This document shows positions 1,177 to 11,632 of a stretch of DNA of 31,681 nt, piece by piece. The notes under the pieces are model-generated. The model saw only the letters and a program-made list of their open reading frames with translations. It ran no database searches and was not told the DNA's origin. The DNA is from Methanobacteriota archaeon (lineage in GTDB: Archaea > Thermoplasmatota > Poseidoniia > Poseidoniales > Poseidoniaceae), in contig JABIGM010000051.1 in the NCBI GenBank assembly GCA_018650165.1, positions 1-31,681 on the forward strand, written 5' to 3'. How positions within the stretch are numbered: the first letter of the stretch is position 1; every line of letters begins with the position of its first letter. Both the position numbers and the translations under genes were made by a program.

Positions 1177-2055
1177 TTAGTCAAACCTTTGAAGTTGCAT
1201 TAATTCGTCAGTAGTTAGTGTCTCTCCACTCATCAACTTACTCATCAAGTCCTGAACCTCGACACGTGCGCCGCGTTGATTATCGCCAGTTATTGCTCCG
1301 CGCATTGCTCGCAGCATGTCTTGTATTGAGTGTAGACATCGTAGAGAAACTATGTAGAAGTGGTGTGCTTTGTCAGCCTCTTTCTTTGATTTACGTAGTT
1401 GGCGGTGAGCGGACTCTGCCTGTTCACGCTGCCTATCAACTTCCTTATTCCACTGAAGCATTAGTTCGTGTGCTTCTTGTGCTGCAACCGCTGACTTTTG
1501 CACTTCCTCGTGGGCAGCTTCTTGCTTTGCCATTGCTTCACGAAGTAACTCGCGAGCCTCCTTTAGTTCTCCATTAGAACCTTCAGAAGTTTTCATTTCA
1601 CGGATCTTAGAAGAAATTTCCTTCATTCGCTTCATGACTTTCTTTTCATTTTGCCCGGTGTGTTCACCGCGCTCGAATTCACTTTCGAGTTTTTGTAAAT
1701 CTCTGCGCAGAGAATGAATGGTTACTTTCTTCTCTTTTTTACCACGGTATCCCGATGAATGGTCTTCCTTTTCAGGACGTTCCGAGTCAAGCATAGATTT
1801 TGCTTGCTTCACTTCTTTGTTAGCATCGGAACGAATTGCTTTCTTTTCACGAACCAATTCGTTCATCTGTTCACGGATTTCGCGTTGTTGGCGGACATTC
1901 TGGATAAGTTCACGAACTTCAGCATTAAGTTCGTTTCGAATGACGGTATGCTCTTTGGTACGAGAATTCCAATCATCACGTGTAGTGCGGTACTGAGTAG
2001 CCTTTTGGTCAACCAGTTTGCGCTTTTCATCTAGAATTTCCTTGAGTTCTGCCAT
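1177..2055 (-). CDS. Archaeal coiled-coil protein, COG1340-like (paralog 1)
   Basis: Heptad-rich, with RNELNAEVREL / REQMNELV and AHEEVQ..AQEAHELM repeats and C-terminal GETLTTDELMQLQ, typical of COG1340. Start moved to ATG 2055 because the AGGTG SD overlaps the GTG at 2067. Confidence 0.75.
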   Translation of the reverse strand: MAELKEILDEKRKLVDQKATQYRTTRDDWNSRTKEHTVIRNELNAEVRELIQNVRQQREIREQMNELVREKKAIRSDANKEVKQAKSMLDSERPEKEDHSSGYRGKKEKKVTIHSLRRDLQKLESEFERGEHTGQNEKKVMKRMKEISSKIREMKTSEGSNGELKEARELLREAMAKQEAAHEEVQKSAVAAQEAHELMLQWNKEVDRQREQAESAHRQLRKSKKEADKAHHFYIVSLRCLHSIQDMLRAMRGAITGDNQRGARVEVQDLMSKLMSGETLTTDELMQLQRFD

Positions 2056-2117
2056 TATTCTACGCACCTGTTCGCTGTGTACTCCCGTACTCTAGCGACT
2101 GGGCGACTAACCTGTCC

Positions 2118-2126
2118 CATTTGAAG
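2118..2126 (-). promoter_or_regulatory. Putative TATA-like element (CTTCAAATG) upstream of coiled-coil paralog 1
   Basis: Exact copy of the 1168-1176 element, followed by AGGTTAG. Confidence 0.35.
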
Positions 2127-2141
2127 CCTCCCTACGGGAGG
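2127..2141 (-). terminator. GC hairpin CCTCCC-GTA-GGGAGG, 3 nt after the last stop of the nucleotidyltransferase operon
   Basis: Perfect 6-bp stem with a 3-nt loop. The same architecture occurs after pdxS (14834-14848). There is no U-tract, so the terminator role is uncertain. Confidence 0.35.
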
Positions 2142-2144
2142 ATT

Positions 2145-2489
2145 TCACAAAAATGGTATAATTGCCTTACTGGCCTTTGCAATTTTCAATCTGGCTTTAC
2201 CCAAATTACTACTGCTTGGGCATTGAATTACGATGGTATGTCCCGATTCTAAGCGTGATGCAATTATAGTACAGTCCTCAGCAACTATGGTTACCAGTGG
2301 CGAGTCAGGATTAAGTTCTAGAATCGCAGACATTGAAGTCGGCTTGAATTCATTTGATGTTCTTTCAACAGTGAAGCCTTCTGAATCCAATAGAGATGCC
2401 GAGATAACACACTCTCCATCGACCAGATCTGCAATAATTGCGCTTGCCACAAATTGGTGTGACCAGTGACAGGTGATGACTATTTGCAT
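2145..2489 (-). CDS. Roadblock/LC7 (MglB-like) domain protein
   Basis: 114 aa with a helix - SASLLDSEGFTV - helix - LVTIVAEDCTIIASRL - TIVIQC - SNLGKARLKIAKASKAI pattern, matching the Roadblock/LC7 layout (S/DxxG turn, C-terminal NLG helix). TAATG overlap with the upstream GNAT gene. Confidence 0.6.
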   Translation of the reverse strand: MQIVITCHWSHQFVASAIIADLVDGECVISASLLDSEGFTVERTSNEFKPTSMSAILELNPDSPLVTIVAEDCTIIASRLESGHTIVIQCPSSSNLGKARLKIAKASKAIIPFL

Positions 2490-2974
2490 TAGATATTTCC
2501 ACGCATAACGTAGCCAATACCAGATTTGTAGTAACCACTAAGAGTACCAATCACTTCCAAACCCCTTCTTCTATAGAATTCGATGGCATACTCATTGTCA
2601 CCTCTTACTTCAAGTTGGATCTCTGTGTGTCCGTCCTTTCGTGCAGCTTCCAGAAGTAAATTCCAGGCAGCCGAACCCAATCCCTTGCCTTTGTAGTCAG
2701 AATCAACAGCAAAAGCAACTACTCTAACTCGTGACTTACTGAATTTATTAGCCCATAATAGCCCTCGAAGCATACCATTTTTGTCGCGTAATACTAGATT
2801 ACCGCCCCATTCAGGTATTGGTAGACTTTTTACTGAAGCCTCAGCATATCGTTCACCGGTTTGGTCAAGAAATAATTGTTTGACTATTTCGATGGTCAAA
2901 GGGTCCAATTCTTTTGGACTTGTACCCTCTTCCCAAAGTGCCTCCATTGAACCACCCAGTACGGAACTCTTCAT
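2489..2974 (-). CDS. GNAT N-acetyltransferase, RimI/Ard1-like
   Basis: Acetyl-CoA motif A VVAFAVDSDYKGKGLG and motif B LEVRGDNEYAIEFYRRRG..GYY. ATGA overlap with the upstream gene. Confidence 0.88.
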   Translation of the reverse strand: MKSSVLGGSMEALWEEGTSPKELDPLTIEIVKQLFLDQTGERYAEASVKSLPIPEWGGNLVLRDKNGMLRGLLWANKFSKSRVRVVAFAVDSDYKGKGLGSAAWNLLLEAARKDGHTEIQLEVRGDNEYAIEFYRRRGLEVIGTLSGYYKSGIGYVMRGNI

Positions 2975-5064
2975 CTTTCTTTCTTCTTATACTGGCCGCG
3001 AGTTCCTCGGTTAGACCCAATTGCTCCTAGTTTCCGCATGCCTGCTTTCTTGGAACTTACGCGTTTTTCTTTCTTGGATGTAGGTTCGGATTCAATTGCA
3101 GAAAGTAGACCTGAAATATCACCCAGTGTCATTGGACCAGAGGATTTAGTTTTCGTTTCAGATTTATTATTTCGCGATTTACCTTGATGTCGGCCACGGC
3201 TTTTTTCATGTGAGTGTCCACCACTCTTTTTCCGTAGCCAAGCTTCTAGCCTTCCATTTTCACGGCGCAGTTTGTGCAAATCTCCACGTCGTTGACGTAG
3301 AGCACGCTGAATATTCTGCGTCCTGCGGTCATAGGATTTTGCTTCCCCTGCATTGATGCTCTTATCTTTCAGTAGAGGTTCTGCTTCCAGAAGTTTCGTG
3401 GTTGCCTCATCATGCTTTGTTTCAAAGAGTTTGAGTGCTTTAATTTCCTTTTTCTGTTCGGTTACCAATACAATGAATCGTTGATGCAATTCACTTGCCT
3501 CACGTGCTTTGCCATGCATGGCCTGTAATTCTAGGAACCATGAGAACTGTACCTTTTCACGGGAAAGTGATGGGACTCTATGTATGTCAATTTCTTCAGT
3601 CAGGCGCGTATATACCTTGGCTAATTCATCTTCAATCATATGGATTGGTAGAATTATATCAGAATTGATTTTATCTCTCGATGTTTTGACCTTATCGATT
3701 TCCTTATTTCTTTCTTTAAGATTGATGATGATGGACTTGTGCTCTTTGCGTAAATCCGATGTTTCTTCAATCACGCCCCGCATAGCCTTAGCCATTCTTA
3801 CATTTGATTGACGTTCAGAATCAAGGGCTTGCACGACCTTCTCCACTTCAATCATGTCTGCCTTTGTCTTTTCTAACATCTCTTTGACAAGATCATCCGA
3901 TTTGTCTCTTAAGTCGTGGAAAATATCTGCTGGCTCCATATCTTTTAATCTGTCAGCATCAATAGTTTCACAAATATTTTTCCAAGAAGCGCCCTCACCA
4001 AACAATTTCGTTGCACGAAGCAATTCATCTCTTATTTTCAGTTCACCAACAGCCCTTACCACTCGGCTAAGGTCATGGTCTGGGTTGAAAGGGTCTTCAA
4101 TTGAGAGGTGGTGTTCTCCCATTCTTGGAGGTTTTTCTTTCTGGCTATTTACCACATCAAGTGCTGATGGGGTTTCATTCATCCATCCCTTTTCATCTCT
4201 TGAAAGGGAACTTCCATTCCTGATTGAAATAATTTCAGTCTCCCAATCCATTGTTGCATATGTGTGGAAGAATGAATACAATAGTTCGGCAAGGGTCGTG
4301 TTTAAACGAGTTTCAACCTTTGCATCTTCGTTGATTGTAATATCATATTCCTTATCTCCAATTTTAATAATTGTTCGATCATTGCCGGATTGTAAATTGG
4401 GTATTATCCCTGATTTAATCAGGTGATTGATTACTAATACAGACCAAGCATATGATGACAAAGTACCACCTGGAGCATCAGAAAGATTCCTGTGAAGGGC
4501 CCAGTGTTTGACGCAGACAGCAAGTTGCCGTACTCGTTCATCGAGTTTGGCATATGTCTTCAGCAGTGTAGTATTATGCAGAGCAAGATTGTTATTTATA
4601 GAAATATCAACCTCTTTACCACTTCGTGGGTCAGTGAACTTGACAATAGGCACAGTCGCCCTTGTGAGTGCTTGAACCGCCTCCATGCCTTGTCCGCGAA
4701 GCATTCCGCTAATTCGTTTGACAACCTTCTTCTGATTAGCGCCTGGTAATTGCAGACACAAATCCAAATCTCCAGTCTTTAGTGAAAGTCCACTTTCTGA
4801 AGAACCAAATGGTGTCAACTTAGACCCCTTGAATTTTGAGGAGATGCTCTTTTCCAAATGATTGATTAAACTATCTTTACGCTTGATATCGCCGGTATTG
4901 AATTTATGATTAGAAATAGTGTGCCCTAGTGGCTTATCGTAATTCATTAGTGATTCCTTACTAGGTGTATTAAGTTCCAATTTACCAACAATCTGAGAAT
5001 GAAGGTTAGCAAATAAGTTAACATCTTCGGGAGAGAGGCCTGTAATCTCACAATTGTCACTCAT
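2971..5064 (-). CDS. Cid1/TUT4-7-like terminal nucleotidyltransferase (NTase + PAP-associated domain) fused to a COG1340-like coiled coil and a basic tail
   Basis: Motifs PFGSSESGLSLKTGDLD (D99, D101), VPIVKF, EVDISINNNLALHNT (D153), VKHWA, GTLSSY, LAELLYSFF, ISIRNG, EKGW and SIEDPFNPDHDLSR. Residues ~380-612 are coiled coil and 612-697 are K/R/G-rich. Confidence 0.9.
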   Translation of the reverse strand: MSDNCEITGLSPEDVNLFANLHSQIVGKLELNTPSKESLMNYDKPLGHTISNHKFNTGDIKRKDSLINHLEKSISSKFKGSKLTPFGSSESGLSLKTGDLDLCLQLPGANQKKVVKRISGMLRGQGMEAVQALTRATVPIVKFTDPRSGKEVDISINNNLALHNTTLLKTYAKLDERVRQLAVCVKHWALHRNLSDAPGGTLSSYAWSVLVINHLIKSGIIPNLQSGNDRTIIKIGDKEYDITINEDAKVETRLNTTLAELLYSFFHTYATMDWETEIISIRNGSSLSRDEKGWMNETPSALDVVNSQKEKPPRMGEHHLSIEDPFNPDHDLSRVVRAVGELKIRDELLRATKLFGEGASWKNICETIDADRLKDMEPADIFHDLRDKSDDLVKEMLEKTKADMIEVEKVVQALDSERQSNVRMAKAMRGVIEETSDLRKEHKSIIINLKERNKEIDKVKTSRDKINSDIILPIHMIEDELAKVYTRLTEEIDIHRVPSLSREKVQFSWFLELQAMHGKAREASELHQRFIVLVTEQKKEIKALKLFETKHDEATTKLLEAEPLLKDKSINAGEAKSYDRRTQNIQRALRQRRGDLHKLRRENGRLEAWLRKKSGGHSHEKSRGRHQGKSRNNKSETKTKSSGPMTLGDISGLLSAIESEPTSKKEKRVSSKKAGMRKLGAIGSNRGTRGQYKKKER

Positions 5065-5906
5065 TCCTCTTCACCTCCTGCTTCCTTTTTCGGATTTGTA
5101 GTTCGAGAACTCTTTCTTTCTTTCATGATTGCTTTGGAGGACATTCCGCCATTGCGAACTCTTTCAGCATCAATTACCAAATCATCGAATTCTTCCCTTT
5201 CGACTCGAGTTTTCCAAAACTCCAAAGCATCTTCGCTGGATGATAATGCATCCTCTAGGCGTTTCGTCCTAGAAGTTGACCTACGCCTAACTTCTTCCCA
5301 ACGAACAAAGTCTTCCTGGCTTTCTGCATTAGCACCAACCAGTTCAACCATTGCATCATGTGCTTTTTGTGCCGAATCGAGCAGACTTCTTGCTCTAGTC
5401 CGCGAATCATTCATTTCTTTTACCAATGGTTGGGAAGCAGATCTTTCTGAAACCCACTCCTCATGCTCTCTTATGAGGGATTTCATTTCATTGATGAATT
5501 TCTCTTCTGTTTTGTGGGTGCCGGCACTTGTTTCTAATTGGTTTTCAAGTGACTGCAACTTTTCAGAGAGTTTGTCTTTGGCCCATTTCGGGTCGGGGTT
5601 CTTCATACCCCCTTCTTGAATTAGTTGTTCACGAATTTCATTTGAACGCTCAAACAGGGTGCGCGCTTCTTTTTGAGCCGCATTTCGCTCACCTTTCAGG
5701 TTTGCAACTTTCACATTTATTTCATCACGATTCGCTCTTGCTGATTTTGCTTTTGGTTCAGCTTCAGCCAGCTCGACTTTTCGAGCCTCGAGGTCGTCTG
5801 GAATAATGTCGGCTAAGCGTTCTCTACGGTGCAGAATCGCTTGTGCCAAAAGTTTTGGTGAGACGGCGAGAAGGTCGTTCGCATCCATTGGAATCAATGC
5901 GGCCAC
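5061..5906 (-). CDS. Archaeal coiled-coil protein, COG1340-like (paralog 2); first gene of the operon
   Basis: RDEINVKVANLKGERN, LQSLENQLET..TEEKFINEMKSL and AQKAHDAMVEL. GTG start with GGGAGG upstream (alternative ATG at 5888). ATGA overlap with the downstream gene. Confidence 0.7.
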   Translation of the reverse strand: MAALIPMDANDLLAVSPKLLAQAILHRRERLADIIPDDLEARKVELAEAEPKAKSARANRDEINVKVANLKGERNAAQKEARTLFERSNEIREQLIQEGGMKNPDPKWAKDKLSEKLQSLENQLETSAGTHKTEEKFINEMKSLIREHEEWVSERSASQPLVKEMNDSRTRARSLLDSAQKAHDAMVELVGANAESQEDFVRWEEVRRRSTSRTKRLEDALSSSEDALEFWKTRVEREEFDDLVIDAERVRNGGMSSKAIMKERKSSRTTNPKKEAGGEEE

Positions 5907-5931
5907 CTGCCTCCCTTGGATAAAGGCTACG

Positions 5932-5951
5932 ACCCACCCTTAAGGGTGGGT
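5932..5951. promoter_or_regulatory. Perfect 20-bp palindrome ACCCACCCTTAAGGGTGGGT in the divergent intergenic region; probable bidirectional promoter or operator
   Basis: Self-complementary. The central CTTAAG is TATA-like on both strands, roughly 35 and 45 nt from the two start codons. Confidence 0.55.
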
Positions 5952-5986: not shown

Positions 5987-8401
5987 ATGCGGAGAGCCGT
6001 TGTAGTGGTCTTTTTACTGGCGTCAATGCTGATTCCAGTGGCTCAGGCGAGTGGCGGAGTTATCGATTCTGTCATTATTAGCGGGGATGGTGAAGTCGGC
6101 GCCGGCCCCATCTCTCTAAACATCTCATTAATCGGTGTAGCTGGTACTAATTCTGCCTCGGTTAATTGGAGTGCAACTTTGAGTGATTCTGAGGGAAATT
6201 TAATTGATTCTGACAGTGGAAATGAACTGGTTGATGATGGAAATACCAACTATGTTGAATCCATGCTTGGTAATGCACCACTTGGATATTCTAATTTGAC
6301 AATTACACTGACTGGCGACATTGGAACTCCTGGTATGAATCAGTGGACTACTTACTATGCAACTATACAGCGGCTACGTCCTCTCGATATCTCAGTTGGT
6401 AATCCTACCTTTACAGGAGTAAACTCAACTGGCGTAGATACTGCGAATTTGACAATTAATGATGGTGATTTTGCAAGGATCGATGTACCGGTCATCAATA
6501 ATGGAGATATTGTTTGGAATGGTTCACTTAATTTGACATTAGAGGATTCAGAAAATCATTCATTGGCAGTTAACATAGCACCAGATTCGACTTTGATATA
6601 TTCTTTCATGACAACTCGGTTAGTCGAAGGTTCACACAGTGTTGAACTGCTACTAAGCGGCCCACTCGATTCAGATCCGAGCGACGATTTTATTTCAGCG
6701 CAAATATTAGTGGGGCCTCCGCCTTTACCTGAATTGGTATTGACAGTTCAACGCTTGAATGAACCACAACCTGGCGCTAGTATCTCTTGGAATGTAACAG
6801 CCACAAATTCAGGCGATGCACAATTTGATGGGTTGGTAATATGTTGGTTTGATGGTGAAGAAATATTCTCTGAGAATGTGCTAATCTCAGTTTCTGCAAG
6901 TTCATATGCCACTGCCACGATGACATCAAAGCCAGGACAATTACTCTGCAGTTCAGCAGAAGCAAGAACTTCCTCCACCAGTAATGCAACTGATTCCGTT
7001 TCGATGGTCTCTGCTATATTTATTGGTGCAGGCCATTCAACCCCAACTCTTCTTGGTGGGCCATGGCACGCTGGTGATGATGTTACACTTTCGATGCTAC
7101 TTCGCAATGAAGGAGATGCAATTGGGAATGCGAGTTTGCGCATAGAAGTTGATGGGGAATTACAAAATGGTACTTCGACAACCCTTGAAGGTGGTAAGGC
7201 AGGGGAAGTGAGCCAAATAATTTCATTTACATCTGCAGGGGAGCATACAGTAAATTGGAGTGTATTCAGTCCCGATGGGGCAGTAGATACCAATCTTTCA
7301 GGTAGTGTAATTATCCCAGTACTTTTCTCTCAAGTCATCGTTATGAATATCGAAACGGTTTCAGTTGTTGATGATGGAATCAAGATTTCTTGGTCAATCG
7401 ATTTGTCAGAGGGACGTGACAGAATTGCCATTCTAAATTTTGGTGTAATTAATGATGGGTTAAAAGGAGAAGAAATAGCAGAGGAAAGAAATTTACTTCC
7501 AGGAATTACATATGGGTCTATGACAATTGGTTTTCAAGATGGACAGGAAACATTTGCTAGCATTTCAGTTAGTGGGTGGACTATCGGTTTCGGTTCCTAT
7601 GTGGAAGATACAGAAATCGTCCCTGATTATACGATTAGCCCACAAGTAACAGTTAGCCCTTCAACTCAACCCAGCACTCCAAGTTCAGGTTCACAGGTAA
7701 ATGTATACTTTACTTTGAGAAATTTGGGGGAGGGGACAATTCCTGCAGGTCAAATTGTAATTACTGATGGGGATGGGACAATACTATCCTCAATAGTTAG
7801 TGCAAAAATGGAAGAATCATCCCGTGATGAGAGCGCTGTTGTAAACTGGCCTAAAGGAGATTCAGTGAAATTGATTGTTACTTGGCATGTTGCTGGAGCT
7901 ACTGTAAGTGATGAAGTTCAGGTCATTTCTGAGGCTTTAGAAAGTAGTAGTGACGAATTTGTAATTCCTTGGGGAGGAATATTGGGAGGATTAGTCGTTG
8001 GCATGGTTGTTATTTTTGCGATCCGAATCAAGAATTCCCCGAAAAAGAAAACGGTATCTCAGAAGAAAGAAACGAAAAAGGTAGAACCCACAGATGAGAA
8101 GGTTGAGGTGGCATGTCCTTCATGCGACCGCAGATTACGAGTCCCAACTACTTACAATGGCGGCGTTAGATGCCCCGAATGTGAAACTAGGTTTGATGTT
8201 GAAGCCGAGGTTCAAGAAACTGAAGAAAGTGACACTGAGCCAATTCCTGAACAATCAGATGACCAGTTGTGGGCAGCATCAGATAACGATATTCTGGGTT
8301 GCCCTAAATGCACTCGGAAATTGAAAGTACCATTCGACCGTAGACCTGCTAAGGCACGCTGCCCTGCTTGTGAAACAATTTTCGAAGCAAGGGTGGAATG
8401 A
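5987..8401 (+). CDS. Large membrane-anchored surface protein: signal peptide, CARDB/Ig-like repeats, TM helix, two cytoplasmic zinc ribbons
   Basis: Signal peptide MRRAVVVVFLLASMLIPVAQA; repeated VxxxNxG beta-sandwich motifs; TM WGGILGGLVVGMVVIFAI; CPSC..CPEC and CPKC..CPAC. Confidence 0.7.
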   Translation: MRRAVVVVFLLASMLIPVAQASGGVIDSVIISGDGEVGAGPISLNISLIGVAGTNSASVNWSATLSDSEGNLIDSDSGNELVDDGNTNYVESMLGNAPLGYSNLTITLTGDIGTPGMNQWTTYYATIQRLRPLDISVGNPTFTGVNSTGVDTANLTINDGDFARIDVPVINNGDIVWNGSLNLTLEDSENHSLAVNIAPDSTLIYSFMTTRLVEGSHSVELLLSGPLDSDPSDDFISAQILVGPPPLPELVLTVQRLNEPQPGASISWNVTATNSGDAQFDGLVICWFDGEEIFSENVLISVSASSYATATMTSKPGQLLCSSAEARTSSTSNATDSVSMVSAIFIGAGHSTPTLLGGPWHAGDDVTLSMLLRNEGDAIGNASLRIEVDGELQNGTSTTLEGGKAGEVSQIISFTSAGEHTVNWSVFSPDGAVDTNLSGSVIIPVLFSQVIVMNIETVSVVDDGIKISWSIDLSEGRDRIAILNFGVINDGLKGEEIAEERNLLPGITYGSMTIGFQDGQETFASISVSGWTIGFGSYVEDTEIVPDYTISPQVTVSPSTQPSTPSSGSQVNVYFTLRNLGEGTIPAGQIVITDGDGTILSSIVSAKMEESSRDESAVVNWPKGDSVKLIVTWHVAGATVSDEVQVISEALESSSDEFVIPWGGILGGLVVGMVVIFAIRIKNSPKKKTVSQKKETKKVEPTDEKVEVACPSCDRRLRVPTTYNGGVRCPECETRFDVEAEVQETEESDTEPIPEQSDDQLWAASDNDILGCPKCTRKLKVPFDRRPAKARCPACETIFEARVE

Positions 8402-8437: not shown

Positions 8438-9094
8438 ATGGGGGCGGGCCATTTTCAGGAATTCGAGGATGAATATCTAGAAACTCTCTACGACTTCCAT
8501 GAAAAATACCCCGGTCAAAGGGTCAGAAATGGCGACCTTGCAAAATATCTAGATGTATCCCCCGCATCTGCTACCGAAATGGTCCAGCGTTTAGCAAAAA
8601 ATGGTTTTGTAGATTATGTTCCCTACAAGGGAGTTAGTCTCACTGCGGATGGATTAGCACATGGAATGATGATGAAAAGGCGCCACCGCCTTGCAGAAGT
8701 TTTACTGACACTTCTGCCGTTTGATGGTGATGTTCACGCGACTGCATGTCGGTTAGAGCATGCATTCGATGATGACCTCGAGGTATGCATTTCACTGCTG
8801 TTGGGTAATCCGAAAACGGATCCCTCTGGAAAAGAGATTCCTCCTGCAAATTCAAGGATTTCTAAAAAGTTAGAAAAAAATACAAATTTATGCATATTCA
8901 AGAACCTACCATTTGATTCATCTGGTGAAATAATCTTGATTATGACTACATCGAATGCGAGAACAATTCTAGCACATACTGGATTAAACGTCGGTTCAGT
9001 TATTGAAAGAAATAATGATGGTTTTTTCTGTGAAGGTGTTGCAATAGATATTTCAACAGAACTATCTGAAAGAATAGTATTGAGGTGTGGCTGA
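8438..9094 (+). CDS. DtxR/MntR-family metal-dependent transcriptional regulator
   Basis: HTH LAKYLDVSPASATEMVQRL; metal-site residues RRHRLAE and HATACRLEH; NPKTDPSGKEIP linker. Confidence 0.9.
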   Translation: MGAGHFQEFEDEYLETLYDFHEKYPGQRVRNGDLAKYLDVSPASATEMVQRLAKNGFVDYVPYKGVSLTADGLAHGMMMKRRHRLAEVLLTLLPFDGDVHATACRLEHAFDDDLEVCISLLLGNPKTDPSGKEIPPANSRISKKLEKNTNLCIFKNLPFDSSGEIILIMTTSNARTILAHTGLNVGSVIERNNDGFFCEGVAIDISTELSERIVLRCG

Positions 9095-10572
9095 TGAGTA
9101 GGTTAGATGAAATCCGTGCGAAGGAAGAAAAATTCCATGGCATTGACAGCCAATTCTTGACAGAAGGCCTTCGACTGGTATTATTATTACCTGCATTTTC
9201 GTTATTGTTTTTCTTTGGAGCATGGGCTTACAAAGGAACTAGCCCAGAATGGTGGCTGAAAAATATAGAGCCATCAGTTGGATTTGATTTTGCAACAAGT
9301 TTGACGCTTATGGCAATCACAATCTTGTTGGGATTTTGCACCGGGCTCAATATCCATCGCCACAGAGTTCGCTTGACGAGGATGGTTTTTCGAGCAGAGG
9401 TTGCCGCAGCCGAAGAAGCTCACCGCCCAGTAACTAGCATGCATGGTTATGCTTCAGTAGCGGGTTTGATTTCTCGTACTATGGCTAGTCACAACACTGC
9501 TTTGTGGTTGGGCGTCTTGGCAACAATCTTAGCATCAATTGTAGCATATTTAGACTCGGATTCAGAAATTGGTCAGCGTGGATTACTGGCTAGCGCTGCA
9601 TTGGTTACTATGGCGATTGGGCAACATTTGTCAACACGTAATCGTAAATTCAACATGGTCACAAATGACGGACTTCTTACCGCTTATTCCCCCCCTCTTC
9701 ACCCTTCAACACTAGAAATGGTGTTCTATGACATGCTTCGTACACAGATGGACCCATTATTGTGCAGTAAATTTGATGATTTCATTCTGGATATCGAAGA
9801 ACACATCCGTACGGGTGTCGAGAGAGAGTTCGCACGAGAAAAATTTCTGATGCTAATGCATCGAAGATACAAAGGTAGTTTAGATCGCAGCACCACTAAC
9901 ATTGAATTAAGCGAAATCCTAACCGATGAAGGTGTGATAGAAATGCTAGGGCATGATGTTTTCACCGAAAGATTATGGGATTCGCTATTTGACCAATCTA
10001 TGAATTCCTACCCTGCATTCTATAGGCTAATTGAGAGGCTTGAACAGGACTTATCAATCGGTAGAAAGCCAGACATGCCAGATCTATTATTCGATGTAGA
10101 TTTGGAAAATATTGTTACAGAGAGGGCGAACTTATTCTGTTATTTCCATAACCTTTCAGATAAGGAAAGACAAGTTGTACTACGAGTTAATTCTCCAGAT
10201 TTCAGACCACATGACCTTTCACTTAGGTACAATCTCAAGCCGGGGCAACGGTCATGGTGGCCTGATGAGGTTGTACCATTGTCATCTGATGGGGATGATG
10301 ACCAATTAGGACGGATGTCAGGCTTACTTCAGGACGGGACACTTGCATGGCAAAATCTCCTTCCCGAAAAGACAGGTGAAGCGACTTTAGGTATCCGTTT
10401 AGAAAATGTAAGTGGTGATTTATTGGTTGGACGACAGATAAATGTCAGAGTTCGGCCAGAATTTGTAAATTGGCTCAGAAATACGAGTTCGCTAACCGCA
10501 TATTTAGTCGGCAGTATTGGACTTGCAGGGGCAATAATTTTACAATTAATTGCGGTTTTATCATCAACATAG
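9094..10572 (+). CDS. Multi-pass membrane protein of unknown function
   Basis: About 4 N-terminal TM segments, a large soluble region and a C-terminal TM. ATG 9094 overlaps the regulator stop (TGATG) and has a GAGGTG SD. Confidence 0.65.
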   Translation: MSRLDEIRAKEEKFHGIDSQFLTEGLRLVLLLPAFSLLFFFGAWAYKGTSPEWWLKNIEPSVGFDFATSLTLMAITILLGFCTGLNIHRHRVRLTRMVFRAEVAAAEEAHRPVTSMHGYASVAGLISRTMASHNTALWLGVLATILASIVAYLDSDSEIGQRGLLASAALVTMAIGQHLSTRNRKFNMVTNDGLLTAYSPPLHPSTLEMVFYDMLRTQMDPLLCSKFDDFILDIEEHIRTGVEREFAREKFLMLMHRRYKGSLDRSTTNIELSEILTDEGVIEMLGHDVFTERLWDSLFDQSMNSYPAFYRLIERLEQDLSIGRKPDMPDLLFDVDLENIVTERANLFCYFHNLSDKERQVVLRVNSPDFRPHDLSLRYNLKPGQRSWWPDEVVPLSSDGDDDQLGRMSGLLQDGTLAWQNLLPEKTGEATLGIRLENVSGDLLVGRQINVRVRPEFVNWLRNTSSLTAYLVGSIGLAGAIILQLIAVLSST

Positions 10573-10624
10573 TACTGAAATTTCTAATCGTAGCATTGAA
10601 GGCCATGATGTCCTCGCAGAAACC

Positions 10625-11632
10625 ATGGCAGAGCATGCGAATGAGGAAACTCGCCCTGACTCCGATTTACGTGACCACCTCCACCAGATGGAATCCAAAG
10701 TCCGTAAATTAAGGGATGGACGTAACAATCACAATGAGCAAGCCAAGCGCTTTGCAGATCAGCGTAATGGGATTCAAACACAGTACTCAGAGCACCGTGA
10801 AAAGGTGGATTTGGCAGTAGCGGAAGTAAAGGTAATTCGTGCTGAACAGAATCTCCACAAAGAGCGCCGTAATGCGATTCAGGCACAAATTAGAGACCTT
10901 ATTGGACAAGCTAAATCCCAGCGAGGCAGCAAGGACGAAAAGAAGTCCGCATCATTCGAATATAACAAACTATCAAGTGAAGTTGCTAATATGGAAAAGG
11001 TCTTTGAAACTCGTGGTGGTATGTCTGCCAAGAAGGAAAAGGAAACGATGAATCTGCTCAAGGTCATGCGTCGACGTATGAAGGAGTTAGAGCCAGAGGT
11101 AAAAGAACTGCAATTAATCAAAGTTGATTTATCAAACCGAGATGAAGCAATTGCAACTCTCAAGGCGAAAGCCGATGAAGCCCACAAACAATTTGTCGAA
11201 TGTCTCGAGAAGATTAAGGGAATGCGTAAAGGCCTAGACGAATTATTCGCTCACAGAGATTTCTTGAAAGGTGAAGGTGACAGATTCCATAAGGAATTTG
11301 TTGCATGCAAAGAAAAGGCTGACGAAGTCCACGCAAAAATAACTGAATTGATGAAAGAAGTGAACGAGGCGAGAGATAAATTGAAAATCGCCCGTGAGGA
11401 ACGTGAATCTTGGATTTCTGACCATAATGAATTAGTTTCCAAAGAAATGAAAACTGGTGCAGAGGATTCAAAGGTTGCTGATTCGATGGTCGAGCACCTT
11501 CTTAGTGCTGGAAATTTATCATTTGGAGGAACTATGTCTGGAGACCGTGCAGGTCTTGGAGTCAAGAAAGGACGTTCTGAAAAGAAGCAGAATATGCGAC
11601 GTGTCAATCTCGTAAAACGTGGAAGGAAGTGA
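10625..11632 (+). CDS. Archaeal coiled-coil protein, COG1340-like (paralog 4)
   Basis: RDGRNNHNEQAK, MEKVFET..KKEKETM, KADEAHKQFV, GDRFHKEFV, KADEVHAKI and a basic tail. Start moved to ATG 10625, with CATTGAAG TATA-like element at 10594-10601. Confidence 0.75.
   Translation: MAEHANEETRPDSDLRDHLHQMESKVRKLRDGRNNHNEQAKRFADQRNGIQTQYSEHREKVDLAVAEVKVIRAEQNLHKERRNAIQAQIRDLIGQAKSQRGSKDEKKSASFEYNKLSSEVANMEKVFETRGGMSAKKEKETMNLLKVMRRRMKELEPEVKELQLIKVDLSNRDEAIATLKAKADEAHKQFVECLEKIKGMRKGLDELFAHRDFLKGEGDRFHKEFVACKEKADEVHAKITELMKEVNEARDKLKIAREERESWISDHNELVSKEMKTGAEDSKVADSMVEHLLSAGNLSFGGTMSGDRAGLGVKKGRSEKKQNMRRVNLVKRGRK

What the first reader, a model, noticed from the sequence alone, without database searches (positions are those of the whole stretch)
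2145..5906. Four-gene translationally coupled operon: coiled coil - TUTase/coiled coil - GNAT - Roadblock/LC7
Each junction is a start/stop overlap (ATGA at 5061-5064, ATGA at 2971-2974, TAATG at 2487-2491), which suggests stoichiometric co-expression. A third coiled-coil gene follows about 90 nt later. An RNA-tailing enzyme, a protein acetyltransferase, a Roadblock adaptor and long coiled-coil scaffolds form a combination I cannot assign to any named system. Inference: a scaffolded RNA-processing or RNA-localisation complex regulated by acetylation. A stress or anti-viral RNA-tailing module is an alternative.
Basis: partly seen in the sequence, partly recalled or inferred. Interest (0 to 1): 0.82.

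Follow-up and report, generated by a model that had tools for sequence, protein, structure and literature searches.

The report
Coiled-coil operon with archaeal RNA uridylyltransferase
A Marine Group II (Poseidoniales) archaeon has an operon in which a eukaryote-type RNA U-tailing enzyme is fused to one of four diverged copies of a nearly universal, uncharacterised archaeal coiled-coil protein, which gives a first, indirect lead to what that protein family does.

Summary

Only the CC1/CC2 overlap is conserved. It is [AG]TGA in 30 of 30 loci across the order, with a Shine-Dalgarno-like GGAGGTGA inside CC1's last codons. The TAATG overlap is doubtful, because relatives start the Roadblock gene 37-38 nt downstream.

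The cluster is core and vertically inherited in Poseidoniales. Its constant part is CC1-CC2...CC3, with CC4 about 5 kb away and a divergent membrane protein. All four coiled coils look like DUF7121/COG1340 paralogues.

The transferase domain is a late addition. PAP_assoc was found in 23 of 30 Poseidoniaceae genomes and in none of 220 other Thermoplasmatota. Its catalytic triad and UTP-selecting His are conserved.

GNAT and Roadblock are accessory and are missing from streamlined lineages. No defence signature was found.

A complex model supports CC1-CC2 binding (score 0.66, best control 0.00).

Best reading: a scaffold-tethered RNA 3' uridylyltransferase. Regulation by acetylation and an antiviral role are unsupported.

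This scan has already noted the same cluster in at least eight other Poseidoniales genomes.

The parts
5920..5926 (-). TATA-like box CCTTTAT, 32 nt upstream of the conserved ATG of CC1. It marks the probable operon promoter and implies a near-leaderless mRNA.
   Evidence: The motif is kept at the same distance from the start in most of the 17 loci compared. Function is inferred.
5061..5906 (-). CC1, a coiled-coil protein. The longest ORF starts at GTG 5906 (281 aa). The conserved start is probably ATG 5888 (275 aa). It is a diverged DUF7121-like paralogue specific to Poseidoniales. Its C-terminus ends in GGEEE.
   Evidence: M7 nearly invariant. hhalign gives 97.7% to CC3 and 97.0% to CC4. It is present in 30 of 30 loci.
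5071..5078 (-). Shine-Dalgarno-like GGAGGTGA inside the last codons of CC1, 6 nt before the ATG of gene 2. The ATGA overlap lies at 5064-5061.
   Evidence: The [AG]TGA junction is present in 30 of 30 loci. The C-terminal GGEEE is at least 90% conserved.
3997..4917 (-). Cid1/URT1-type nucleotidyltransferase domain of gene 2 (aa 50-356). Key residues are G87-S88, D99, D101, D153 and the nucleotide-recognition loop EDPFNPDHDLSR with H330.
   Evidence: Pfam. Arabidopsis URT1 1.1e-43, Cid1 and TUT4/7. The catalytic residues are conserved in 102-111 of 111 fusions.
2974..3939 (-). CC2 arm of gene 2 (aa 376-697). It comprises a coiled coil, a conserved SGGxLSLxDLxxLL motif and a K/R/G-rich tail. In Thalassarchaeaceae and some Poseidoniaceae it is a stand-alone gene of about 320-350 aa.
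   Evidence: The tail's net charge is +18 here, with a median of +15 in 25 orthologues. hhalign gives 96.9% to CC4.
2489..2974 (-). GNAT acetyltransferase of the Ard1/Naa50-like N-terminal acetyltransferase type. Its start overlaps the stop of gene 2 (ATGA at 2974-2971).
   Evidence: PDB 4pv6 Ard1 matches at 1.5e-16 over aa 20-152. It is the only RimI-like hit in the genome.
2145..2489 (-). Roadblock/LC7-fold protein. The probable true start is GTG 2450 (101 aa).
   Evidence: AF2 pLDDT 92.8. Foldseek matches Roadblock, MglB and LAMTOR at TM 0.83-0.85. 12 of 22 orthologues hit PF03259. Start inferred.
2127..2141 (-). Hairpin CCTCCC-GTA-GGGAGG, 3 nt after the Roadblock stop. It may mark the end of the four-gene transcript.
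   Evidence: It is kept in two same-genus loci, one of them with a changed loop. Function is inferred.
1177..2055 (-). CC3, the canonical DUF7121/COG1340 coiled-coil hairpin. It starts at ATG 2055, preceded by a conserved leader with AGGTG. It is probably a separate transcription unit.
   Evidence: PF23435 at 5.8e-15. It is orthologous to the main DUF7121 copy of other Thermoplasmatota. AF2 gives a hairpin of two helices of about 90 aa. Leader.
5987..8401 (+). Divergently transcribed membrane protein. It has a signal peptide, a large Ig-like/CARDB-like ectodomain, one transmembrane helix and a cytoplasmic tail with two zinc ribbons.
   Evidence: It lies divergent to CC1 in 30 of 30 loci.
10550..11632 (+). 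CC4, the fourth DUF7121-like paralogue, with a basic tail. It is syntenic across the order.
   Evidence: 28 of the 30 loci. hhalign gives 99.0% to CC3. Tail net charge.

Best explanation
This is the Poseidoniaceae version of an order-wide, vertically inherited gene cluster. The cluster is built on diverged copies of the archaeal coiled-coil hairpin protein DUF7121/COG1340.

CC1 and CC2 are a translationally coupled pair. Their products most likely form a heteromeric rod through their most conserved segments.

In part of the Poseidoniaceae, a eukaryote-type Cid1/URT1-family nucleotidyltransferase domain was added to the N-terminus of CC2. The enzyme therefore sits on the CC1-CC2 scaffold. I propose that CC2's conserved basic tail supplies RNA binding, and that the enzyme adds U residues to RNA 3' ends.

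The Ard1-like acetyltransferase and the Roadblock protein are co-transcribed accessory genes that predate the fusion. Their functional tie to the enzyme is not established.

Shown: gene content, conservation, folds and intact catalytic residues. Inferred: the complex, the RNA substrate, U specificity and the cellular role.
For: Cluster conservation.
- The order P7memb <-> CC1-CC2(+/-NTase)-[GNAT]-[Roadblock]-CC3-purP holds in 30 of 30 loci from 21 genera.
- The CC1 stop/CC2 start [AG]TGA is present in 30 of 30 loci, with an internal GGAGGTGA.

CC1-CC2 binding.
- The complex model supports binding: ipSAE 0.66, best of 3 controls 0.00. That mark was reached by 58 of 80 solved complexes and 2 of 110 mismatched pairs.
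- The three runs share at least 91% of contacts, and the partner's pLDDT is at least 70. My own alignments were used, so the calibration holds only roughly.
- The modelled interface falls on the conserved CC1 segments 7-38 and 213-262 and on P0002 residues 466-519.

The transferase.
- Pfam palm plus PAP_assoc; URT1 at 1.1e-43 over aa 59-356.
- D99, D101, D153 and G87-S88 are kept in 110-111 of 111 fusions. H330 is kept in 102, D331 in 111 and R334 in 108.
- PAP_assoc was found in 23 of 30 Poseidoniaceae genomes and 0 of 220 other Thermoplasmatota.
- The archaeal domains form one clan apart from eukaryotes (SH-aLRT 100, quick tree).
- The fusion keeps the ancestral CC1/CC2 junction.

Basic tail. 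It is conserved with or without the enzyme: median net charge +15 over the last 90 aa.

Transcription signals. There is a TATA-like box upstream of CC1, a hairpin after the Roadblock gene, and a separate conserved leader before CC3.
Against: - There are no expression or biochemical data.
- Most of the order keeps the cluster without the transferase. RNA tailing is therefore an add-on, and the scaffold's own role stays unknown.
- No recognised RNA-binding domain is present. The basic tail could bind membranes, DNA or acidic proteins instead.
- Profile similarity between coiled coils can be inflated by heptad composition.
- The complex model is a prediction only.
- GNAT and Roadblock are loosely joined in relatives and absent from several lineages.
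- The GNAT may simply be the housekeeping N-terminal acetyltransferase.
Confidence: 0.55

Rival explanations
1. Only CC1 and NTase-CC2 form a functional unit. The Ard1-like GNAT is the cell's general N-terminal acetyltransferase, and the Roadblock protein has an unrelated role. Both are co-transcribed only because the genome is compact.
For: - Junctions around the GNAT and Roadblock genes are not conserved.
- Both genes are absent from the cluster in six Thalassarchaeaceae genera, while CC1-CC2-CC3 remains.
- The Roadblock orthologue was not found anywhere in five such genomes.
- The GNAT is the only RimI/Ard1-like hit in this genome.
- About 20% of same-strand gene pairs in this genome can overlap.
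Against: - GNAT and Roadblock hold the same slot between CC2 and CC3 in all three families of the order where they are present.
- No promoter-like gap separates them from gene 2 here.
- In the genomes checked, they are missing from the cluster together.
Confidence: 0.3
2. The cluster is chiefly a cytoskeletal or envelope-linked scaffold. The coiled-coil rods dock on the zinc-ribbon tail of the divergently encoded membrane protein. The transferase domain is a lineage-specific passenger with a minor or unrelated role.
For: - The membrane protein is divergent to CC1 in 30 of 30 loci.
- The coiled coils are kept without the enzyme in most of the order.
- CC3 models as a long antiparallel hairpin resembling SMC arms and the dynein stalk.
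- Roadblock proteins are typical adaptors on scaffolds.
Against: - Synteny across this order is high in general, so adjacency is weak evidence.
- The enzyme's catalytic residues are under strong constraint.
- DUF7121 outside the order has no conserved membrane neighbour.
Confidence: 0.2
3. The nucleotidyltransferase does not tail RNA. Instead it nucleotidylylates a protein or small molecule, or it adds A rather than U.
For: - The Pol-beta superfamily includes protein- and small-molecule-modifying enzymes (established knowledge).
- The substrate was not tested.
- 9 of 111 family members lack the His at position 330.
Against: - The match runs along the whole Cid1/URT1 catalytic module, including PAP_assoc and the nucleotide-recognition loop.
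- His330, Asp331 and Arg334 are conserved.
Confidence: 0.08
4. The operon is an antiviral or stress RNA-tailing defence module.
For: Nucleotidyltransferases occur in several defence systems (established knowledge).
Against: - It sits at a fixed chromosomal location, and the full-length fusion is present in most Poseidoniaceae genera sampled.
- There are no PADLOC hits.
- No mobile-element or tRNA context was seen, and there is no local G+C deviation.
- The enzyme forms a single, vertically inherited clan.
Confidence: 0.03

Closest known systems
Cid1-family terminal uridylyltransferases: Arabidopsis URT1 (PDB 7XS4, 6L3F), S. pombe Cid1, and the human TUT4/TUT7 catalytic modules
   Same: - Palm plus PAP_assoc architecture.
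- G-S and DxD...D catalytic residues.
- A nucleotide-recognition loop with the UTP-selecting His.
- Matches at E 1e-43 to 1e-36 over about 300 residues.
   Different: - Encoded in an archaeal chromosome.
- Has no zinc knuckles and no disordered N-terminal region.
- Fused at its C-terminus to a DUF7121-like coiled coil with a basic tail, and translationally coupled to a coiled-coil partner.
- Only about 30-38% identical to the nearest eukaryotic sequences found.
- Activity is untested.
DUF7121 (PF23435) / COG1340, an uncharacterised archaeal coiled-coil protein. I infer, but did not test, that it equals arCOG01159 (TK2157), which Makarova et al. 2019 (PMC6393860) list as present in 492 of 524 archaeal genomes and as a top-priority unknown.
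   Same: - CC3 passes the Pfam cut-off and is the orthologue of the main copy in other Thermoplasmatota.
- CC1, CC2 and CC4 align to it by profile over 140-270 columns.
- The Atlas neighbours of CC3 are DUF7121 clusters named 'phosphoserine phosphatase' or 'archaeal coiled-coil protein'.
   Different: - There are four clustered copies here, against one to three usually unlinked copies elsewhere.
- CC1 and the CC2 arm do not reach the Pfam threshold.
- CC2 is confined to the order, apart from weak matches in one other family.
- One copy carries an enzyme domain.
Roadblock/LC7 proteins: bacterial MglB, Asgard and Streptomyces Roadblock, and LAMTOR2/p14
   Same: An alpha-beta-beta-alpha-beta-beta-beta-alpha fold, matching at TM 0.83-0.85.
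   Different: - No Ras-like GTPase partner reached the Pfam cut-off in this 80%-complete genome.
- The window's protein has no Pfam match itself.
- In other lineages it lies tail-to-tail with a KaiC-like ATPase.
Archaeal Ard1 N-terminal acetyltransferase (PDB 4PV6) and eukaryotic Naa50
   Same: - Full-length GNAT match at 1.5e-16 to Ard1 and 8e-9 to Naa50.
- The sequence shows a YKGKGLG acetyl-CoA loop.
   Different: - It scores below the RimI equivalog cut-off (53 against 86 bits).
- Its substrates are unknown.
- It is embedded in the coiled-coil operon.

Membership tests
Cid1/TUTase family (non-canonical poly(A)/poly(U) polymerases) | Pol-beta-type palm with hG[GS] and the DxD plus third Asp catalytic triad | tested here: met
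   PF22600 at 3.5e-29. G87-S88, D99, D101 and D153 are present, and each is conserved in 110-111 of 111 family members.
Cid1/TUTase family (non-canonical poly(A)/poly(U) polymerases) | PAP-associated (central) domain following the palm | tested here: met
   PF03828 at 4.7e-14, 52.8 bits against a cut-off of 22.6.
Cid1/TUTase family (non-canonical poly(A)/poly(U) polymerases) | His in the nucleotide-recognition loop that selects UTP (Cid1 H336) | tested here: met
   The loop EDPFNPDHDLSR aligns to URT1 EDPFETSHDLGR. H330 is kept in 102 of 111 members. That this His selects uracil is established knowledge, not tested here.
Cid1/TUTase family (non-canonical poly(A)/poly(U) polymerases) | Template-independent addition of UMP or AMP to RNA 3' ends | not testable with these tools
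   Needs an enzyme assay.
Roadblock/LC7 (PF03259) | Alpha-beta-beta-alpha-beta-beta-beta Roadblock fold | tested here: met
   AF2 pLDDT 92.8. The top 50 PDB matches are Roadblock, MglB and LAMTOR structures.
Roadblock/LC7 (PF03259) | Sequence match to the family profile | tested here: inconclusive
   The window's protein has no hit. 12 of 22 orthologues match, with a best E-value of 3.3e-6.
Roadblock/LC7 (PF03259) | Cognate small Ras-like GTPase (MglA-type), as in MglB systems | tested here: not met
   PF00071 found no match over the cut-off in this 80%-complete genome, and none lies in the window.
GNAT, Ard1/RimI-type N-terminal acetyltransferase | GNAT fold with an acetyl-CoA loop | tested here: met
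   PF00583 at 1.4e-14. 4pv6 Ard1 matches at 1.5e-16 over aa 20-152.
GNAT, Ard1/RimI-type N-terminal acetyltransferase | Score above the RimI equivalog cut-off | tested here: not met
   TIGR01575 scores 53.1 bits against a cut-off of 86.4.
DUF7121 / COG1340 coiled-coil family | Match to PF23435 above the gathering score | tested here: met
   Met by CC3 only (55.9 bits against 29). CC1, the CC2 arm and CC4 have no Pfam hit. They align to CC3 or CC4 by hhalign at 82-99% probability.
Translationally coupled operon | Start/stop overlaps conserved in relatives | tested here: inconclusive
   CC1/CC2: 30 of 30 loci. CC2/GNAT: 5 of 19. GNAT/Roadblock: 1 of 19 with a clean 4-nt overlap (one more has an over-extended start call); the three same-genus loci have 37-38 nt gaps.
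Anti-phage defence system | Match to known defence protein models, and patchy or mobile distribution | tested here: not met
   PADLOC gave no hits. The location is fixed across the order.

The most novel reading that the evidence does not exclude
The fusion works as a Rosetta stone. On this reading, DUF7121/COG1340 coiled coils, possibly the most widespread uncharacterised archaeal protein family, are RNA-associated scaffolds. They could, for example, form a platform on mRNA or the ribosome, which would also explain a co-encoded N-terminal acetyltransferase. Poseidoniaceae would then carry out eukaryote-like 3' uridylation of RNA using an enzyme acquired from a eukaryote.
Probability: 0.3. Interest if true: 0.85.

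Novelty: new variant of a known kind. Interest (0 to 1): 0.68.

Why it matters
- Cid1-type uridylyltransferases are regarded as eukaryotic RNA-decay and small-RNA regulators. I found no report of one in archaea in the searchable library.
- Poseidoniales are among the most abundant archaea in the surface ocean, so RNA U-tailing there would be a new layer of archaeal RNA metabolism.
- The coiled-coil partner family appears to be the one listed as the top-priority unknown of archaeal genomes (PMC6393860). A natural enzyme fusion plus a predicted heteromer gives a concrete, testable handle on its function.

Tried and rejected
- Fold search with the CC3 model: it returned only generic antiparallel coiled coils such as the SMC arm, SH3BP5 and the dynein stalk, all with E above 0.003. 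There was no functional lead.
- Sequence search of CC3 against the PDB: nothing found.
- Neighbourhood analysis of DUF7121 in 20 other Thermoplasmatota genomes: no neighbour family was shared by more than 4 loci.
- PADLOC and Rfam: no hits.
- Literature searches for COG1340/DUF7121, for archaeal TUTases, and for Marine Group II nucleotidyltransferases: only the 2005 coiled-coil census and the 2019 'dark matter' list were relevant.
- TK2157: it appears in a chromatin-fraction mass-spectrometry list (PMC7325993), and a transposon mutant is viable (PMC6393311). Neither paper assigns a function.
- Direct BLASTP among CC1, the CC2 arm and CC3: weak or insignificant. Paralogy rests on profile comparisons.
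- Donor lineage of the transferase: it could not be resolved, because the tree was a quick search with limited eukaryotic sampling.

Full report
**Observation**

- Gene 1 (P0001, 281 aa) is helical and has no Pfam family.
- Gene 2 (P0002, 697 aa) has an MTPAP-like palm (PF22600, 3.5e-29) and a PAP_assoc domain (PF03828, 4.7e-14) within aa 50-330. About 320 further residues are helical and end in a K/R/G-rich tail.
- Gene 3 (161 aa) is a GNAT.
- Gene 4 (114 aa as the longest ORF) has no Pfam match.

For gene 4, an AlphaFold2 model built on 22 orthologues has pLDDT 92.8 and an alpha-beta-beta-alpha-beta-beta-beta-alpha topology. Its best PDB matches are all Roadblock/LC7, MglB or LAMTOR chains at TM 0.83-0.85. 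Twelve of the 22 orthologues hit PF03259.

A fifth gene (P0005) starts at ATG 2055, 89 nt after gene 4, and passes the DUF7121 threshold.

**Junctions**

The three overlap motifs are present in the sequence, but they differ in weight.
- CC1/CC2: the stop of CC1 and the start of CC2 form [AG]TGA in all 30 loci examined across the order. In the window the ATGA is preceded by GGAGGTGA, a Shine-Dalgarno-like motif encoded by CC1's nearly invariant C-terminal GGEEE.
- CC2/GNAT: the ATGA recurs in only 5 of 19 loci.
- GNAT/Roadblock: the TAATG is unlikely to be the real start. The three same-genus loci begin the Roadblock gene 37-38 nt after the GNAT stop, which corresponds to GTG 2450 here.

About 20% of same-strand neighbour pairs in this genome (143 of 727) permit a 4-nt or 1-nt overlap, so overlap alone says little.

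A CCTTTAT TATA-like box lies 32 nt upstream of the conserved ATG of CC1 (5888) and recurs at that distance in most relatives. A hairpin follows the Roadblock stop. CC3 has its own conserved leader with an AGGTG motif. This fits a four-gene transcript followed by a separate CC3 unit, but no RNA data could be obtained.

**Distribution**

Homologues of P0002 come from Poseidoniales (Marine Group II) genomes and metagenomes, and full-length matches extend down to 36% identity.

Among 151 genomes of the order, the full-length protein occurs only in part of one family: f1 (Poseidoniaceae, from the names), in genera g1, g2, g4, g5, g7, g8 and a few g3. In the other large family (f3), in f2, in g6 and in most g3, only residues of about 376-697 match, as a stand-alone ORF of about 320-350 aa.

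PAP_assoc was found in 23 of 30 f1 genomes, in 0 of 220 other Thermoplasmatota, and in none of 14 control prokaryotes.

In 30 loci from 21 genera the order is constant: divergent membrane protein, then CC1, CC2 (with or without the transferase), optionally GNAT and Roadblock, then CC3 and usually purP. Six small-genome f3 genera have CC1-CC2-CC3 with neither GNAT nor Roadblock. In five such genomes no Roadblock orthologue was found anywhere. A fourth coiled coil, CC4 (window 10550-11632), is syntenic about 5 kb away.

**The coiled coils**

Direct BLASTP between the coiled coils is weak. Profile comparison links them over 140-270 columns: CC1-CC3 97.7%, CC1-CC4 97.0%, CC2-CC4 96.9%, CC3-CC4 99.0%. 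Heptad composition can inflate such scores.

DUF7121 occurs in 117 of 121 Thermoplasmatota genomes, usually in one to three copies. Outside the order, the main copy is the orthologue of CC3 and a second copy resembles CC4, with no conserved neighbours. The CC2 profile matches only Poseidoniales, plus weak hits in one other family. CC3 and CC4 are therefore the ancient pair. CC1 and CC2 are order-specific, diverged paralogues.

CC3 models as an antiparallel hairpin of two helices of about 90 residues, and it finds only generic coiled-coil matches. CC2 and CC4 keep strongly basic tails whether or not the enzyme is present.

COG1340 was described in 2005 as a highly conserved archaeal group of unknown function (PMC1322226). 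arCOG01159 (TK2157) heads the 2019 list of uncharacterised archaeal proteins, present in 492 of 524 genomes (PMC6393860). That this arCOG equals DUF7121 is an inference.

**The enzyme**

The closest solved structure is Arabidopsis URT1, at 1.1e-43 over aa 59-356. Cid1, TUT4, TUT7, CutA and GLD-2 follow.

Conservation across 111 full-length family members is high.

| Residue | Kept in |
|---|---|
| G87-S88, D99, D101, D153 | 110-111 of 111 |
| H330 | 102 of 111 |
| D331 | 111 of 111 |
| R334 | 108 of 111 |

The recognition loop EDPFNPDHDLSR aligns with URT1 EDPFETSHDLGR. The nearest named non-archaeal sequences are plant URT1 and oomycete CCHC-type enzymes, at about 28-35% identity. In a quick tree the archaeal domains form one clan (SH-aLRT 100) apart from the eukaryotic ones. 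The restricted distribution together with this single clan points to one acquisition from a eukaryote. The donor is unresolved.

**Complex**

A complex model of CC1 with the CC2 arm supports binding.
- Score 0.66, best of three controls 0.00.
- That mark was reached by 58 of 80 solved complexes and 2 of 110 mismatched pairs.
- The runs share at least 91% of contacts, and the partner's pLDDT is at least 70.
- My own alignments were used, so the calibration counts hold only roughly.

The contacts fall on the conserved N-terminal motif and the C-terminal segment of CC1, and on the most conserved block of CC2 (P0002 466-519). This is a prediction, not a demonstration.

**GNAT and Roadblock**

The GNAT is closest to the Ard1 N-terminal acetyltransferase of PDB entry 4pv6 (1.5e-16) and to Naa50. 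It scores below the RimI equivalog cut-off. It is the only RimI-like match in this 80%-complete genome, so it may be the general N-terminal acetyltransferase.

No Ras-family GTPase reached the cut-off in the genome, so the Roadblock protein has no evident MglA-type partner. In several other lineages a KaiC-like ATPase lies tail-to-tail with the Roadblock gene. Here only a 32%-identical homologue exists, elsewhere in the genome.

**Interpretation**

The best-supported reading is a scaffold-tethered RNA 3' uridylyltransferase. CC1 and CC2 would form a rod, the acquired enzyme would ride on CC2, and the basic tail would be a plausible RNA-binding element.

Regulation by acetylation is not supported. 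The defence reading is contradicted by the core, fixed-location, vertically inherited distribution and by the absence of PADLOC hits.

Because the cluster predates the enzyme, its ancestral function remains unknown. The fusion is a lead, not an answer.

**Prior notes**

This scan had already described the same cluster in at least eight other Poseidoniales genomes. My results agree with most of those notes. They contradict one claim, that the transferase is conserved in every Marine Group II lineage.

Noticed in passing
window 5932-5951: A perfect 20-nt palindrome (ACCCACCCTT/AAGGGTGGGT) lies just upstream of CC1's TATA-like box, in the divergent promoter region. Other genera have a different palindrome at the same place, for example GGTCACATAGTGACC and CCCCACTTTAGTGGGG. 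It could be an operator for a co-evolving regulator, possibly the DtxR-like protein encoded at 8438-9094.
   Followed up: partly
window 2056-2126; L036-L038 and L042 upstream of CC3: A conserved leader precedes CC3. It has an A/T-rich TTCAAAT or TTAAAT element, a conserved GTCGCC block, and GAACAGGTG 9 nt before the ATG. Two genera add an internal hairpin. No Rfam family matches.
   Followed up: partly
window 5987-8401 (+): This encodes an 804-aa membrane protein with a signal peptide, an Ig-like/CARDB-like ectodomain, one transmembrane helix and two cytoplasmic zinc ribbons. It is divergent to CC1 in all 30 loci compared.
   Followed up: partly
window 9085-10572 (+): A 495-aa ORF has no Pfam match. 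It overlaps the DtxR-like gene upstream and CC4 downstream, so the plus-strand arm (membrane protein, DtxR, this ORF, CC4, sugar nucleotidyltransferase) is as tightly packed as the minus-strand arm.
   Followed up: no
L039:5428-6156, L046:8820-9512, L060:5444-6136 and others: In several Poseidoniales lineages a KaiC-like ATPase (PF06745, 1.1e-30) of about 230-250 aa lies between Roadblock and CC3, tail-to-tail with the Roadblock gene. It is missing from this slot in the window's genus. A 32%-identical homologue lies elsewhere in the genome (G000:C47).
   Followed up: partly
window 5061-5078: There is dual coding here. CC1's nearly invariant C-terminal GGEEE is encoded by GGAGGTGAAGAGGAATGA, which also supplies the Shine-Dalgarno-like motif and the overlapping start for gene 2. 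The protein-level conservation may partly reflect this RNA-level constraint.
   Followed up: partly
alignments A3 and A4; window 2974-3200: CC2 (SGGxLSLxDLxxLLxSGG), CC3 (DLMxKLxSGETLSTEELMxLQR) and CC4 share a short C-terminal helix-SG-helix motif after the long hairpin. It may be a common docking element of the family.
   Followed up: no
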